From positions 20,642 through 84,641 of the forward strand of contig CAYZZU010000008.1 of assembly GCA_964483105.1 (NCBI GenBank): a stretch of DNA of 64,000 bases, in the 5' to 3' direction. The DNA comes from an uncultured Nitrospirota bacterium. Its GTDB lineage: Bacteria > CG2-30-53-67. The position numbers were made by a program. Below are positions 23,601-32,600 of the stretch, in pieces; positions within the stretch are counted from its first letter, which is position 1, and each line of letters starts with the position of its first letter.

Positions 23601-26600
23601 CACCGTTTATCTCTTCCAGCTCCGGTTCCTGAGCCTCCCCAGGGTGTTACGGGAAATCTTTTCTTCTTCACGGATCATCAAGGCGGGAGTGGCGCCGGAG
23701 TACGACATCCGGAAACTCAAGGAATTGAAACCGTTCCGGGAAGCGGGATTTGTGGACCTCTCGTGGATCGCAAAACGGGCGGGAATCCTGAATCATGGAC
23801 TTCGGGGCCTGACTGCGGTTCTACTGGGGTTTCGTATCTCCAAGGGGGCCCAGCGGAGCAACTGGGGGCGGGAAATTCTGACGCCCGCCCAGGTCCGGTA
23901 TGCCGCCACCGATGCCTGGGTGAGCCGGAAGATCTATCTGCAATTGAAACGAAACCGTACGCGCGACTCGGAGGGTGCCCTTCTGATCCCCCCCGGATAA
24001 GGCAAGACCCCCTCCCTTTTTGTTCTCCCTGATTAATTGAACTCCCGTGTTTTCCGAAACCCGATCTCAGGCCACTTCTCCATGGTAAGACTGAGGCGCC
24101 AGCCGCCGTCGGCCAGATAGGTGAGATGCCCTTCGGCATCCAGCGCAAGGTGGTTCTGATTTTTTCTTTGGAACTCCCTGAGGAGTCTCGGGTCCTCGCA
24201 GTGGACCCACCGTGCGGTGGTGTAGGGGGCCCTCTCGCAGAGCGCGTCCGCGCCGTATTCCGATAAAAGCCGCGCCTGGGTCACGTCAAACTGAAGAACG
24301 CCCACCGCCCCGAGGATATAGTCCCGGCCGGCAAGGGGTCGAAAGACCTGCACGGCACCCTCTTCGGCCAATTGGATCAAACCCTTCCGGAGTTGCTTGA
24401 CCTTCAGCGGATTCTTCAGCCGGACCCGGCGGAAATGTTCCGGAGCGAAATTCGGGATCCCTGTAAACTTGAGGGGTTCCCGTTCGGTGAACGTATCTCC
24501 AATTTTGATGGTGCCATGGTTGTGGATCCCGATGATATCGCCGGGAAAAGCTTCCTCCACGTGGGCCCGGTTCTGGGCCATGAAAATGGTGGCGTTGGAG
24601 AGGGTGATCTCCTTGCCTGTGCGGTGATGCCGAACCTTCATTCCCCGTCTGAATTTTCCGGAACAGATCCGTATGAAGGCAATCCGGTCACGATGGGCCG
24701 GGTTCATGTTCGCCTGGATTTTGAAGGCAAAGCCTGTAAACGGGGCCTCCAGCGGTGAGACCTCACGGGTGGTGGTCGGTCGGGGCCCCGGCGCCGGGGC
24801 CAGTTCGAGAAAGGCGTCGAGCAGTTCACGAACCCCGAAATTGTTGACGGCGCTTCCGAAAAAGACCGGAGTCTGGTTCGCCTTGAGATACTCCTTGTGA
24901 TCAAAGGGATTGGCCGCGCCTTCGAGAAGTTCGACCTCCGCCCGGAGTTCTTCAGCCCGGCCGGAGAGCAGTCCATTCAGCCTCGGATCGTCAAGATCAC
25001 GGAGAACGATCCTCTCACGGGGACGGGTCTCCCGACCGGGCGTAAAAAGACTCAGCTCCCGGGAATAGAGATTGTACACTCCTTTGAAGCGTTTCCCCAT
25101 CCCGATCGGCCAGGAGAGAGGCGTGCATTCGATCTGCAGCTTGTCCTCAATTTCGGCGAGCAGATCCAGAGGATCCTTGCCGTCCCGGTCCAGTTTGTTG
25201 ATGAAGGTGATCACCGGAGTATTCCGCATCCGGCAGATTTCCATCAACTTTTCGGTCTGGGGTTCCACTCCCTTGACGTTGTCGATCACCATGAGCGCGC
25301 TGTCAACGGCCGTCAGGACCCGGTAGGTATCCTCGGAAAAATCCTGGTGACCGGGCGTGTCGAGAAGATTGATTTCGTAGTCCCGGTAATGGAATTTCAT
25401 GACCGAGGTCGTGACGGAGATACCGCGTTCTTTTTCGATCGACATCCAGTCGCTTGTGGCATGCCGGGCGGCCTTGCGCGCCCTCACGGCCCCGGCCAAC
25501 TGAATCGCCCCGCCGAAGAGGAGCAGTTTTTCGGTCAGGGTGGTCTTGCCCGCATCGGGATGACTGATGATGCCGAAAGTGCGTCGCCTCTCGATTTCTT
25601 TTCGTCGCTGTCTGCTCACCGCGCCGGATCCTTCAAAATAGATACTGATCACGAAAAAACGGGCCGGATTCGGCCCGTTTCAAGGAGGGATCATATATCA
25701 GCAGGAAGAAAGATGTCAACCATTAGATTTGCAAAAGGAGAGTGAAAACGGTATGATGAGCCGATAAACGGCTTTCCCGCCGTAAGGAAGTTATGTTCTC
25801 CGGGTTTTCGTAGGAAATCAGGTTTGACGGCTTATTGATGCAATCGTCTGAGAAAGAAAAGCGGGCGCTCTGTGGAATCTGCCCGGCCGGGTGCTGGGTG
25901 GTTGTCACTTACGACGAAAGAGGCCGGTTGGCCACGGTGCGTCCGGATGAGGATTCGCCACTCGGGATGATCTGCAAACTGGGGGAACACTCTTCCGAAA
26001 TCGTCTATTCGGAGAACCGGCTCCGTTATCCCATGCGCCGGAAGGGCCCGAAAGGGAGCTATGATTTCGAGCGGATCTCCTGGGAGGAGGCCTACGATGA
26101 AATCGTGGCGAATCTGCACCGAACCCGCAGGGATTTCGGTCCGGAGGCGGCTGCCGTCTATACCGGGCGGGGGAGTTTTGAACTTTCTCTCTGTGATCTT
26201 TTCCAGCCGAAAGGGGTGGCGGTCTCTTCCGCCTCCAGCATTCTGTTTCCCTTTGGTTCTCCCAACACCATGGGAGTGGGCTCCCTCTGTTATGTCTCCT
26301 TCGCAATGATCGCTCCCCATGTCACCATGGGAGGAATGTTGATCAATATGTTTTCCGATCTGGAACGGGCCGAACGAATCGCGATCTGGGGGGCCAATCC
26401 GGTCACCGACTGCCCCCCCCTGGACCTGAAACGGATTCTCAAGGCACGGGAACGGGGGGCCGAGGTGGTGGTCATCGACCCCAGACGAACCCTGACCGCG
26501 AAACTCACCGGCGCCCGGTGGATCCCGATCCGGTCGGGGACGGACGGCGCCCTGGCCCTGGGGCTCAGTAACATTCTGATTGAAGAGGAACGCTTTGATC

Positions 26601-29600: not shown

Positions 29601-32600
29601 TCCATCGAGGAACGAGTTCAAACCGACCTCCGGTATATCCCGGTGGATGTGAGTGAGAAGACCCTGATCGAGGCCTCCCGGGATCTGCTGCTCCATTACC
29701 CTGGTTTGCGGATCCTGGGTATGGTGGCCGATTTTACAAGACACCTGGAGGAAATCCCGGCGGAGCGGGAGAAAATCCTGCTTTTCCTGGGAGGAACCGT
29801 CGGCAATTTCAGAGAAGAGGAGCGGAAGAGATTCTTTCGTCAGGTCGCCCGCGTTCTGGGGCGAAAAGGCCGTTTCCTTCTGGGGTTGGATCTGATCAAA
29901 CCCCGAGAAACACTGGAGCGGGCCTATGACGACTCCCGGGGGGTCACCTCTGATTTTAACAAGAATGTGCTTGCTGTGGTCAATCGAAGATTGCAGGGAA
30001 ATTTCAGACCGGCGGATTTCCGCCATCTGGCGTTTTTTAACGAAGAAAAGAAACGGATCGAGATGCATCTTCGGGCCCGCCGGAGGATCGAAGTCGAGGT
30101 TAAGGCCCTGAACCTGCGGGTGAGCATGGCGCCCGGTGAAACCATTCACACGGAAATCTCCCGGAAGTTCGACCGGGAAGAAGTCTACAAAATGGCTTTT
30201 GAGGCGGGACTGACGGTCACCCGTTGGTTTTCAGATCCCCGGGAATGGTTCGCCATCGTGGAGATGCGCGCTGAAAATGAGGAAGTGTGTTTCTCGTGAA
30301 TGGAGAAGGATAGAAGGAGTGACATGTCATCCAGAAAGTTCGATCCGAAGAAACTGGCCAAGCTGAACGATCCGGAAAGGTTCAAGACGCTGAATCCGGA
30401 TATCCTCTGGAAAGCGGCAGGGGTGAGGGATCCTGAAGCCCTGATCGACATCGGGGCCGGGACCGGGTTTTTCGCCGTTCCCTTTTGCGAGAAGATGGGG
30501 GAAGGGAAGGTCTATGCCTGTGATCTGTCCGAGACCATGATCGAGTGGATGAAGGAGAACCTCCCCACCCGGTACCGGGACCGGATCGTCCCCCTCCGGA
30601 TGGAAGAGAGCGCAGTTCCCCTTCCGGATGAAACGGGAGACATGATTTACATGATCAACCTCCATCATGAGCTGGAAAAGCCCGTGGAGATGATGCGCGA
30701 GGGTTACCGGCTGTTGAAACCCGGAGGGATCCTCCTGATTGTGGACTGGAAGAAAAGGGAGACTTCCGATGGGCCGCCTCTCTCCATCCGCGTTCCGGCG
30801 GAAGAGATGATCGGTCACATGCGGGCGGGGGGATTTGTGGAGATTGTCAGGCACGACCTCCTGCCCGAACATGAGCTTCTGGTGGGGAAAAAGAAAGATC
30901 TTGGAGAGGGTTCCGGGAGCTGTGGACAAACCGTGAGTTTTCCTGAGGAACGTGCAACATGCTGATTCCCGTCCTTGAAGCCGCTTCCATTCTTCTCCTG
31001 GCTCTTTCCGCCGGACTGGCGTTCCGGCTGATCCGCATGACCGGCAGACACGCGGCATGGATCCTGATCGCCTCGGCTTTTTCTCTGGCGGCCGCACAAC
31101 GCGCCGTTACACTGGTTCGTTTTGCTGAAAGAGATTTCGCGCATCCTCCCGGCAGCCTGTCCGGGGAATGGATCGTCCTGGTCATCTCGGCGCTCATGGC
31201 GCTCGGAATCGCGAAGATTGCTCTGCTCTTCCGGAAGATCCGACGGTCGGAATCGGCGCTCGCCCTGTCGGAGAAGAGGTACCGGAATATCTTTCATAAA
31301 ACGGCGGTTTCTCTCTGGGAAGAGGATGTCTCGAAGGTCAAGTCCCTCCTGGAGGAACTGAAGTCGCGCGGTGTGAGCAATTTCCGGGACTACATGGAGA
31401 AACATCCGGATTTTGTCCGCAAGGCCGTCAAGATGACAAAGGTTCTGGACGTCAATGAACGAACCTTGGAGCTCTACAAGGCGAAAAGCAAGGAGGAACT
31501 GTTGGGTTCCCTCGACCGCGTCTTCATCCCGGAATCCTATCCGGTTTTTCGGGAAATCCTGATCGCCCTTGCCGAGGGGAAGACCTATTTCGAGGCCGAA
31601 GCGGTGAACCGAACCCTCCAGGGAGAACCGATGGATATCCTGATGACGGTGACCCTGTTCTCCGAGGGGGCAAAAACCGATCATATCCTGGTCAGTATTA
31701 TGGACATCACCGAGCGAAAGCGGATCGAGCGGAACCTGTATCTCTTCAAGAACCTCATGGATCAAACGAACGACGCGATTTACGTGGTGGATCCCGAAGA
31801 CGGTCGTTTTCTCGATGTCAATTATCAGGCTTGCGCCTCACTGGGGTACAGCCGGGAAGAGCTGCTGAAGATGGGAGTGCCCGACATCGATATGGTGTTG
31901 ACGAGCCGGGAGCTTTGGAGGGCGCGTGTAGAAAAACTGAAGAGGGGGAGGAGCAACCTGATCGAACGAACCCACCAGCGAAAGGATGGAAGTACCTTTC
32001 CTGTTGAAGTCAATGTGCGGTATGTCTGTGACGGGGAAGAGGCCTACCTGATCGCTGTCGTGCGTGATATCAGTGAACGCAGGAAGATAGAAACGGAGCT
32101 TCAACGCATGGAAAAACTTGAGTCCCTGGGCGTCCTGGCAGGGGGGATCGCCCACGACTTTAATAATCTGCTTACCGGAATCCTGGGCAATATCGGCATC
32201 GCGAAAAAGCCCGGGATATCCGGAAAACTTGTATACGAACGGCTGGAAAAAGCGGAGAAAGCCGCCCTGCGTGCCAAAGGACTGACCCGGCAGCTTTTAA
32301 CCTTTTCACGGGGTGGTACACCCGTAAAAAGTACCCTCTCTCTGAAAAAACTGATCCGAGATGCAGCCGGGTTCGCCTTAACGGGATCCAACGTGAAGTG
32401 CGAGTTCGACCTGGCGGAGGATCTTCGTTTTGTCGACGCCGATGAGGACCAGATCGTCCAGGTAATCCACAACCTGGTGCTCAATGCCGATCAGGCCATG
32501 CCCGAAGGGGGGGAAATCAGAATCCGGGCGGCAAACGTCGCGGTGAATTCCGGAAGCCATCTTCCTTTACAGAAGGGTGAATACGTGAAGGTTTGCGTCG

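What the first reader, a model, noticed from the sequence alone, without database searches (positions are those of the whole stretch)
25835..30299. Two-gene anaerobic ergothioneine pathway: Mo/W-pterin oxidoreductase-cysteine desulfurase fusion next to EgtD
One uninterrupted 1134-aa ORF joins a complete molybdopterin (bisPGD) oxidoreductase module to a complete NifS-type PLP cysteine desulfurase. The oxidoreductase module has a CxxCxxxC Fe-S motif and is of the acetylene-hydratase/DMSO-reductase-superfamily type. The next gene, 32 nt downstream, carries the EgtD signature [22 protein letters not shown].

This is the architecture reported for the metallopterin-dependent ergothioneine synthase (MES) of Caldithrix abyssi. 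There, hercynine made by EgtD is sulfurised directly using cysteine-derived persulfide sulfur on a Mo/W-pterin enzyme, without EgtB/EgtC/EgtE or EanB.

If correct, this organism makes ergothioneine by the least-studied of the three known routes. It also offers a second, phylogenetically distant MES for mechanistic work. The fusion itself is seen directly in the sequence. The functional assignment rests on established family knowledge.
Basis: partly seen in the sequence, partly recalled or inferred. Interest (0 to 1): 0.85.

Follow-up and report, generated by a model that had tools for sequence, protein, structure and literature searches.

The report
Known-type anaerobic ergothioneine synthase plus EgtD

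Summary
One ORF (25835/25838-29239, +) fuses a bis-MGD molybdopterin module to a NifS/IscS-type PLP cysteine desulfurase. EgtD (29271-30299) starts 31 nt downstream.

The interpretation also holds. The fusion is 68.3% identical over its full length to the characterised Caldithrix abyssi MES (N-module 74%, C-module 61%). All nine residues the MES paper uses to define the family are present: four Fe4S4 Cys, the metal-ligand Cys, the PLP Lys, the persulfide Cys, Cys1097 and the penultimate C-terminal Cys. Acetylene hydratase is the nearest solved relative of the N-module. EgtD passes the NCBIfam equivalog cutoff and keeps all 11 histidine-site residues checked.

The novelty was overstated:
- Four MES homologues were already shown to be active, and about 80 were listed in 2022.
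- At least 559 species-representative genomes now encode one, across many bacterial phyla and archaea.
- EgtD is adjacent in 63 of the 70 best loci that have room to show it.

What remains is a new, uncharacterised member in an uncultured lineage. Databases name these proteins only "cysteine desulfurase". A lineage-specific SAM methyltransferase and a PAS hybrid kinase appear co-transcribed downstream.

The parts
25728..25757 (+). Sigma-70-like promoter candidate (TTTGCA-18-TATGAT) in the 185-nt divergent intergenic region between prfC (- strand) and MES.
   Evidence: This is a consensus match only: 6 sites were found against 3.2 expected. No Rfam riboswitch is found in 25600-25900.
25838..29239 (+). 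MES gene: metallopterin-dependent ergothioneine synthase, 1133 aa from ATG. An in-frame TTG lies at 25835.
   Evidence: It is 68.3% identical over its full length to Caldithrix abyssi MES.
25838..27985 (+). N-terminal bis-MGD (Mo/W-pterin) module, approximately residues 1-716. It is the presumed site of C-S bond formation on trimethylhistidine.
   Evidence: Pfam Molybdopterin and Molydop_binding. It is 74% identical to CaMES residues 1-718. The best PDB relative is acetylene hydratase 2e7z.
25871..25975 (+). Four Fe4S4-cluster cysteines: Cys12, Cys15, Cys19 (25871-25894) and Cys46 (25973-25975). They correspond to CaMES Cys14/17/21/48.
   Evidence: They are invariant in the 12-sequence alignment A1.
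26288..26290 (+). Cys151, the predicted Mo/W ligand. It corresponds to CaMES Cys153 and aligns with the metal-ligand Cys of acetylene hydratase.
   Evidence: The CaMES C153S variant is inactive (PMC9516567).
28088..29236 (+). C-terminal class-V PLP cysteine desulfurase module (NifS/IscS type).
   Evidence: Pfam Aminotran_5, E 5e-83. TIGR03402 NifS scores 486 bits. It is 61% identical to CaMES residues 747-1136.
28682..28684 (+). Lys949, the PLP Schiff-base lysine. It corresponds to CaMES Lys952.
   Evidence: The K952A variant abolishes synthesis in CaMES.
29048..29050 (+). Cys1071, the desulfurase persulfide-carrying cysteine in the motif SSGSACRSG. It corresponds to CaMES Cys1074.
   Evidence: The C1074S variant reduces production 2000-fold.
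29117..29119 (+). Cys1094. It corresponds to CaMES Cys1097, which is conserved but dispensable.
   Evidence: The C1097S variant reduces production only 2-fold.
29231..29233 (+). Cys1132, the penultimate residue (tail ...RFLPCR). It corresponds to CaMES Cys1135 and is the proposed swinging-tail persulfide relay to the metal site.
   Evidence: The C1135S variant reduces production 2000-fold.
29271..30299 (+). EgtD, the L-histidine N-alpha-trimethyltransferase that makes hercynine (TMH). It is 342 aa.
   Evidence: TIGR03438 equivalog, 365 bits against a 290.9 cutoff. Pfam Methyltransf_33, E 1e-109. PDB EgtD 4pim, E 2e-75. All 11 of 11 substrate-site residues are conserved.
30324..30965 (+). Class-I SAM methyltransferase (213 aa) of unknown substrate. 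It follows EgtD by 24 nt and has a strong Shine-Dalgarno sequence. It appears co-transcribed but is not part of the known MES system.
   Evidence: It is absent next to MES in 80 reference loci and conserved only in the same-species contig L086.
30959..33217 (+). PAS-HisKA-HATPase-REC hybrid sensor kinase. Its start codon overlaps the methyltransferase stop codon by 7 nt.
   Evidence: Comparable kinases occur near MES in only 6 loci, at varying positions and on varying strands.

Best explanation
The two genes encode the O2-independent, metallopterin-dependent ergothioneine pathway.

Proposed mechanism, following the CaMES paper:
1. EgtD trimethylates the alpha-amino group of L-histidine with three SAM to give hercynine (trimethylhistidine, TMH).
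2. The C-terminal PLP module of MES abstracts sulfur from L-cysteine onto Cys1071 as a persulfide, releasing alanine.
3. The sulfane sulfur is relayed within the same polypeptide, via the penultimate Cys1132 on the flexible C-terminal tail, to the Mo or W centre. That centre is held by the bis-MGD cofactor and Cys151 in the N-terminal module, and the transfer gives a metal(VI)=S species.
4. C2 of the TMH imidazole attacks this electrophilic sulfido ligand. Tautomerisation releases ergothioneine and leaves metal(IV), which the next persulfide re-oxidises.

What is shown here: the architecture, the homology, the conservation of every mutationally validated residue, and the gene linkage.

What is inferred from CaMES experiments: catalytic activity, metal identity, the sulfur path and the chemical mechanism. 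The original authors themselves call the mechanism tentative.
For: - The domain order Fe4S4-Molybdopterin-Molydop_binding-Aminotran_5 lies in one ORF.
- The true CaMES was extracted from the Caldithrix abyssi locus L014, and its numbering reproduces the paper's residues exactly. The window protein is 68.3% identical to it over 1133 aligned positions (1632 bits). The N-module is 74% identical and the C-module 61%.
- It is also at least 57-62% identical to the three other MES shown to be active in E. coli. These are lower bounds, because those sequences were taken from OCR text.
- CaMES C14, C17, C21, C48, C153, K952, C1074, C1097 and C1135 all align to identical residues. These positions are invariant among 12 diverse homologues.
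- P0004 (Candidatus Jettenia ecosi) is 71% identical to the window protein. That species is listed as a MES homologue in the paper's Table S1.
- Acetylene hydratase is the top solved relative of the N-module, by about 45 bits.
- EgtD passes the equivalog cutoff. It keeps Y39, F47, Y56, G161, T163, N166, Y206, T213, M252, E282 and S284 in mycobacterial numbering.
- Linkage is family-wide. EgtD is adjacent in 63 of the 70 reference loci with room on both sides, and a further locus has it 2.2 kb away.
- Experimental basis for the family: PMC9516567.
Against: - No activity data exist for this protein.
- The 64-kb window contains no Moco-biosynthesis genes (moa/moe/mob) and no molybdate or tungstate transporter genes, so cofactor supply is unverified.
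- Absence of EgtB and EanB can only be stated for the window, not for the genome.
- The Pfam Fe4S4 sub-domain match is below its gathering score, although all four Cys are in place.
- The mechanism itself is only a proposal. No MES structure is in the PDB: the best hits cover only one module each.
Confidence: 0.9

Rival explanations
1. It is a MES-family enzyme with a different physiological product. One option is selenoneine, made by using selenocysteine in the NifS-like module. Another is a sulfurised heterocycle other than hercynine, possibly modified further by the downstream SAM methyltransferase.
For: NifS/IscS-type enzymes are related to selenocysteine lyases: PDB hits 3a9x and 3gzc and NCBIfam SclA at 111 bits. 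A lineage-specific methyltransferase and a kinase appear co-transcribed. The MES authors speculate that related Mo enzymes may sulfurise other heterocycles.
Against: The enzyme is 68% identical to one shown to make ergothioneine. The partner EgtD is fully histidine-type. The methyltransferase is not conserved next to MES in other lineages. The SclA score is far below its 525-bit cutoff.
Confidence: 0.05
2. It is a generic IscS/NifS cysteine desulfurase for Fe-S or Moco sulfuration, as public databases name it, and it merely happens to be fused to an unrelated molybdoenzyme such as a reductase or hydratase.
For: NCBIfam NF002806 (IscS subfamily) scores 315.7 bits, above its 304 cutoff. Sources name homologues 'IscS subfamily cysteine desulfurase' or 'cysteine desulfurase NifS'.
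Against: The equivalog models for NifS (486 bits against a 530.75 cutoff) and IscS (379 against 643) are not reached. The fusion, the extra C-terminal Cys and the EgtD linkage are conserved across at least 559 species. In CaMES the desulfurase is obligatorily coupled in cis to the pterin module for ergothioneine synthesis.
Confidence: 0.03
3. The N-module is a true acetylene hydratase, or a formate-, nitrate- or polysulfide-type oxidoreductase.
For: Acetylene hydratase is the best PDB hit (E 2e-64). PsrA, FdhF and FdhH follow at about 171-177 bits.
Against: The match to acetylene hydratase is low-level, in two pieces of about 110 bits each. By contrast, identity to the CaMES N-module is 74%. 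The residue after the second cluster Cys, which is the catalytic Asp13 in acetylene hydratase, is Pro here and in all four validated MES. There is no Tat signal, no partner electron-transfer subunit gene nearby, and no selenocysteine codon.
Confidence: 0.01

Closest known systems
Metallopterin-dependent ergothioneine synthase (MES) of Caldithrix abyssi (CaMES, UniProt A0A7V4WV16; Beliaeva & Seebeck 2022, PMC9516567)
   Same: The length is the same (1133 against 1136 aa), as are the domain order, all nine family-defining residues and the C-terminal ...RF(L/I)PCR tail. Global identity is 68.3%. The cytoplasmic N-terminus starts directly at the Fe4S4 motif. An EgtD gene is linked.
   Different: The host is different: an uncultured lineage whose IleRS is only 57-61% identical to named Desulfosarcina, Nitrospirota and Syntrophobacter sequences. 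The inter-module linker is only about 36% identical, with a 5-residue length difference. EgtD is immediately downstream here. Two extra lineage-specific genes follow. The protein is untested experimentally.
Tungsten acetylene hydratase (Syntrophotalea acetylenica, PDB 2e7z)
   Same: It is the closest solved fold for the N-module. It has a CxxCxxxC...C Fe4S4 motif, a Cys ligand to the metal, and is a cytoplasmic bis-MGD enzyme.
   Different: Similarity is only low-level (221 bits). Its catalytic Asp13 is Pro in MES. It has no fused desulfurase. Its chemistry is hydration, not C-S bond formation.
IscS/NifS cysteine desulfurases (for example PDB 1p3w, 5wt2, 9wep)
   Same: The C-module is a full-length class-V PLP fold, with the Schiff-base Lys and the SSGSAC persulfide loop.
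   Different: It is fused in cis to the sulfur acceptor. It has an extra essential penultimate Cys. It scores below the NifS and IscS equivalog cutoffs.
Moco sulfurases (ABA3, and XdhC/NifS-like systems)
   Same: A PLP desulfurase delivers sulfur to a molybdenum-pterin centre.
   Different: In those systems sulfuration is a one-off maturation step on a xanthine-oxidase-family cofactor. In MES it is proposed to occur in every turnover on a DMSO-reductase-family cofactor.
EanB/EanA anaerobic ergothioneine pathway (Chlorobium limicola) and the EgtB/C/E aerobic pathway
   Same: The first step (EgtD-type trimethylation) and the end product are the same.
   Different: The sulfurising enzymes are unrelated: a rhodanese-like enzyme, or a non-haem-iron sulfoxide synthase plus lyase. 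No such genes lie in the window.

Membership tests
MES (metallopterin-dependent ergothioneine synthase) | A single polypeptide with an N-terminal bis-MGD-binding module and a C-terminal class-V PLP cysteine desulfurase. | tested here: met
   Pfam domain order. One ORF with no stop or frameshift.
MES (metallopterin-dependent ergothioneine synthase) | Four N-terminal Cys for an Fe4S4 cluster (CaMES C14, C17, C21, C48). | tested here: met
   They align to C12, C15, C19 and C46 and are invariant in A1.
MES (metallopterin-dependent ergothioneine synthase) | Metal-coordinating Cys153. | tested here: met
   Cys151 in the motif GVGSLCYVSF. It aligns with the ligand Cys of acetylene hydratase.
MES (metallopterin-dependent ergothioneine synthase) | PLP lysine Lys952. 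| tested here: met
   Lys949 in the motif SLSGHKIYG.
MES (metallopterin-dependent ergothioneine synthase) | Persulfide Cys1074, and the conserved Cys1097 and penultimate Cys1135. | tested here: met
   Cys1071, Cys1094 and Cys1132. These are the criteria used for the paper's Table S1.
MES (metallopterin-dependent ergothioneine synthase) | Close overall homology to an experimentally validated MES. | tested here: met
   68.3% identity to CaMES. At least 57-62% identity to EaMES, AbMES and hvMES.
MES (metallopterin-dependent ergothioneine synthase) | Co-encoded with a histidine-specific EgtD-type methyltransferase. | tested here: met
   EgtD lies 31 nt downstream on the same strand. The same linkage is seen in 63 of 70 informative reference loci.
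MES (metallopterin-dependent ergothioneine synthase) | The genome lacks EgtB-type and EanB-type sulfurising enzymes. | tested here: inconclusive
   None is present in the 64-kb window. The rest of the genome was not available.
MES (metallopterin-dependent ergothioneine synthase) | Binds a Mo or W bis-MGD cofactor, with the cofactor supply genes present. | not testable with these tools
   Only domain-level homology is available. No moa/moe/mob, mod or tup genes lie in the window.
MES (metallopterin-dependent ergothioneine synthase) | Converts TMH plus cysteine sulfur to ergothioneine. | not testable with these tools
   This needs expression and LC-MS.
EgtD (L-histidine N-alpha-methyltransferase, TIGR03438) | Scores above the curated equivalog cutoff. 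| tested here: met
   365.1 bits against a 290.9 cutoff. The EasF subfamily model scores only 166 bits against its 205.55 cutoff.
EgtD (L-histidine N-alpha-methyltransferase, TIGR03438) | Histidine-binding residues Y39, F47, Y56, T163, N166, Y206, T213, E282, S284 (plus G161 and M252). | tested here: met
   11 of 11 residues are identical, using the alignment. Nine of the residue roles are taken from PMC8593015. G161 and M252 come from my own recollection of the EgtD structure papers.
Acetylene hydratase | A catalytic Asp immediately after the second cluster Cys (CxxC-D). | tested here: not met
   The window protein has CGIC-P, as do all four validated MES. Acetylene hydratase has CQSC-D. That this Asp is the catalytic residue is from my own knowledge.

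The most novel reading that the evidence does not exclude
In this lineage the MES-EgtD pair has been extended into a four-gene, sensor-linked operon. The abutting class-I SAM methyltransferase would modify the product or its precursor, for example by S-methylating ergothioneine. The translationally coupled PAS hybrid kinase would tie the pathway to a redox or other signal. Together this would be a regulated or derivatised form of the anaerobic ergothioneine pathway not yet described.
Probability: 0.07. Interest if true: 0.5.

Novelty: new member of a known kind. Interest (0 to 1): 0.2.

Why it matters
This is mostly an annotation fix. Public sources name this protein and its relatives only "cysteine desulfurase NifS" or "IscS subfamily". 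NCBIfam release 20 returned no MES-specific model among the 25 best of 59 matching families. As a result, an ergothioneine pathway goes unrecognised in hundreds of anaerobes, including anammox bacteria, Nitrospirota, Thermodesulfobacteriota and methanogens.

For this organism, the assignment predicts O2-independent ergothioneine synthesis. For enzymology, full-length CaMES could not be purified and no MES structure is in the PDB. Any well-behaved homologue therefore has some practical value, but this one is only one of many candidates.

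Tried and rejected
- Riboswitch in the MES leader: a permissive Rfam scan of 25600-25900 found nothing at E<=1.
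- Terminator or attenuator between MES and EgtD (hairpin plus T-run, 29225-29255): its folding energy is not distinguishable from shuffled sequence (z = -1.34; 22 of 200 shuffles fold as well). Terminator-like sites in the region number 10 against 10.4 expected.
- Conserved third partner gene: ORFs from the 80 reference loci were clustered. Only a betaine-type ABC transporter (8-15 loci) and clade-specific AOR/ferredoxin/MBL genes recur, and none is in the window.
- The downstream methyltransferase as a pathway component: at E<=1e-3 the 80 loci give only two weak opposite-strand hits.
- Apparent 1685-aa 'extended MES' in L027: this is an artefact of a masked run of N.
- Host identification: IleRS gives only unnamed or 'Deltaproteobacteria bacterium' relatives at 70-73% identity, and 57-61% to named taxa. 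The phylum is left open.
- Mo/W-cofactor genes in the window: none found.
- Structure prediction was not run. It could not change the verdict, given 68% identity to the characterised enzyme.
- The MES sequences in the paper's supplement are machine-read and contain errors. For that reason CaMES was re-derived from genomic DNA.

Full report
**Observation**

The ORF list shows one uninterrupted + strand reading frame from 25835 (TTG; the next codon, 25838, is ATG) to 29239. A 342-aa ORF follows at 29271-30299. Public gene calls on the same contig use the ATG start, giving 1133 aa.

Pfam finds Molybdop_Fe4S4, Molybdopterin, Molydop_binding and a full-length Aminotran_5 domain, in that order. The Fe4S4 match is weak. 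The second protein is Methyltransf_33 at E 1e-109. The gap between the genes is 31 nt, and a strong AAGGAGG ribosome-binding site precedes the EgtD ATG.

**What the family is**

The relevant paper is Beliaeva & Seebeck 2022 (PMC9516567). It defines MES as an N-terminal metallopterin module related to tungsten acetylene hydratase, fused to a functional cysteine desulfurase.
- Four homologues (Caldithrix abyssi, an Abyssubacteria bacterium, a euryarchaeon and a vent metagenome) each made ergothioneine from fed trimethylhistidine in E. coli.
- The C153S, K952A, C1074S and C1135S variants abolished production. C1097S did not.
- Sulfur transfer is obligatorily intramolecular.
- The pterin module alone can shuttle sulfur between ergothioneine and TMH.
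- Table S1 lists roughly 80 species, selected by conservation of Cys153, Lys952, Cys1074, Cys1097 and Cys1135.

**Direct membership test**

A scan of one genome per GTDB species returned the Caldithrix abyssi locus, L014. I translated the true CaMES from it. It is 1136 aa, and all nine residue numbers given in the paper fall on the expected Cys or Lys, which validates the reference sequence.

The window protein is 68.3% identical to CaMES over 1133 aligned positions (1632 bits). The N-module is 74% identical, the C-module 61%, and the short linker about 36%. All nine residues align to identical residues. In ATG numbering these are Cys12, Cys15, Cys19, Cys46, Cys151, Lys949, Cys1071, Cys1094 and Cys1132. 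They are invariant among 12 diverse homologues. Against the machine-read, error-containing supplement sequences of the other three validated enzymes, identity is at least 57-62%. The C-terminal tail ...RFLPCR mirrors ...RFIPCR in CaMES.

- *Clade of the N-module.* The best solved relative is acetylene hydratase 2e7z (221 bits). PsrA (177), FdhF (175), FdhH (171) and the DMSO reductases (about 150) follow. The metal-ligand Cys aligns. The residue after the second cluster Cys is Asp in acetylene hydratase, where from my own knowledge it is catalytic. It is Pro here and in all validated MES. This is consistent with a different chemistry.
- *Catalytic residues.* All are present, as described above.
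- *EgtD profile.* TIGR03438 (equivalog) scores 365.1 bits against a 290.9 cutoff. The related EasF model stays below its cutoff. Using the ungapped alignment to M. smegmatis EgtD, all 11 substrate-site residues I checked are conserved. The roles of nine of them (Tyr39, Phe47, Tyr56, Thr163, Asn166, Tyr206, Thr213, Glu282, Ser284) are described in PMC8593015.

None of the in-silico refutation criteria is met.

**How common it is**

A word-indexed search of 5.8 billion proteins returned fusion proteins of about 1130 aa, 66-71% identical, for every one of the 120 best hits after the self-match. They come from anammox Planctomycetes, Nitrospirota, Desulfobacteraceae and other groups, and are named only "cysteine desulfurase NifS" or "IscS subfamily".

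The best 80 come from many bacterial phyla and from methanogenic archaea, all at 60-71% identity. This flat identity across phyla and domains, set against a host IleRS only 57-61% identical to named taxa, suggests lateral spread of the gene pair.

In those 80 loci, EgtD lies:

| Position of EgtD relative to MES | Loci |
|---|---|
| Immediately downstream, same strand | 46 |
| Immediately upstream, same strand | 16 |
| Immediately upstream, opposite strand | 1 |
| 2.2 kb away | 1 |
| Absent, with room on both sides | 6 |
| Locus truncated | 10 |

. The enzyme is in fact among the closer relatives of CaMES.

**Surroundings**

The window is part of JGI metagenome 3300023503, contig Ga0256915_100014 (160,778 bp). 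The same sequence occurs in SRR5189948, and a syntenic, near-identical contig occurs in JGI sample 3300009408.

Upstream of the pair, divergently transcribed, is prfC. The rest of the window is housekeeping: mreBCD, PBP2, rodA, bipA, an ABC-F gene, ileS, lspA, lgt, hisA/hisF and an Arn-like lipid A modification cluster. The window has no Moco-biosynthesis genes, no molybdate or tungstate transport genes, and no egtB, egtC, egtE or eanB.

Downstream of EgtD lie a 213-aa class-I SAM methyltransferase (30324-30965, with a strong Shine-Dalgarno sequence) and a PAS hybrid histidine kinase (30959-33217). The kinase start codon overlaps the methyltransferase stop codon by 7 nt, so four genes appear co-transcribed. 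The methyltransferase is not linked to MES in any other lineage examined. I therefore treat it as lineage-specific and of unknown relevance.

**Mechanism**

The proposed pathway runs as follows.
1. EgtD makes hercynine.
2. The PLP module loads cysteine sulfur on Cys1071.
3. The tail Cys1132 carries that sulfur to the Mo/W centre, which is ligated by Cys151.
4. The imidazole C2 of hercynine attacks the metal(VI)-sulfido species.
5. Ergothioneine leaves, and the metal(IV) centre is re-sulfurised.

The architecture, residues and linkage are shown here. The activity and sulfur path are inferred from CaMES mutagenesis and isotope experiments. The chemical steps are the original authors' tentative proposal. 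No MES structure exists in the PDB copy searched.

**Verdict**

The system is a new, uncharacterised member of a known and widespread family, so interest is low to modest. Its main value is correct annotation and one more candidate for structural work.

Noticed in passing
window 37186-37251 (-), with the downstream gene at about 35261-37165 (-): A fluoride riboswitch (RF01734, 40.4 bits against a gathering score of 34, E 1e-7) sits directly upstream of a 614-634-aa dynamin-family GTPase gene (Pfam Dynamin_N) rather than a crcB or eriC-type fluoride exporter. This is an unusual pairing.
   Followed up: no
window 30324-33217 (+): A class-I SAM methyltransferase and a PAS-HisKA-HATPase-REC hybrid kinase abut EgtD. 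The kinase start overlaps the methyltransferase stop by 7 nt, which gives an apparent four-gene operon. This arrangement is conserved only in a same-species contig (L086), not in 80 other MES loci.
   Followed up: partly
L011, L012, L013, L036, L055, L059, L061, L067 (ATPase homologue also in L007, L021, L027, L028, L070, L072 and L073): A betaine/choline-type ABC transporter (an ATPase plus a fused substrate-binding/permease protein) lies beside MES/EgtD in several Scalindua, Gemmatimonadota and other genomes. It may be a hercynine or ergothioneine transporter. It is absent from the window.
   Followed up: partly
L025, L034, L035, L039, L040, L046 (upstream of MES): Loci of the Desulfomonilaceae type carry a tungsten-type aldehyde:ferredoxin oxidoreductase and two MBL-fold hydrolase genes directly upstream of MES. 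All but L046 also have a 4Fe-4S ferredoxin gene there. This is clade-specific synteny that places two pterin enzymes side by side.
   Followed up: no
window 38839-50214 (-): An Arn-like cluster holds three PMT_2/ArnT-type glycosyltransferases, a DegT aminotransferase, a GT2, a formyltransferase, an epimerase and a polysaccharide deacetylase. It resembles L-Ara4N lipid A modification, with triplicated transferases.
   Followed up: no
window 29225-29255 (+): A G+C-rich hairpin followed by a T-run overlaps the MES stop codon in the MES-EgtD spacer. Its stability is not distinguishable from shuffled sequence (z = -1.34), so it is probably not a terminator.
   Followed up: yes
NCBIfam and database naming of window 25838-29239 and its homologues: None of the 25 best NCBIfam matches shown (of 59 families) is MES-specific. 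The protein passes only the generic 'IscS subfamily' model (315.7 bits against a 304 cutoff). This explains why hundreds of MES genes are named only as cysteine desulfurases in public records.
   Followed up: yes
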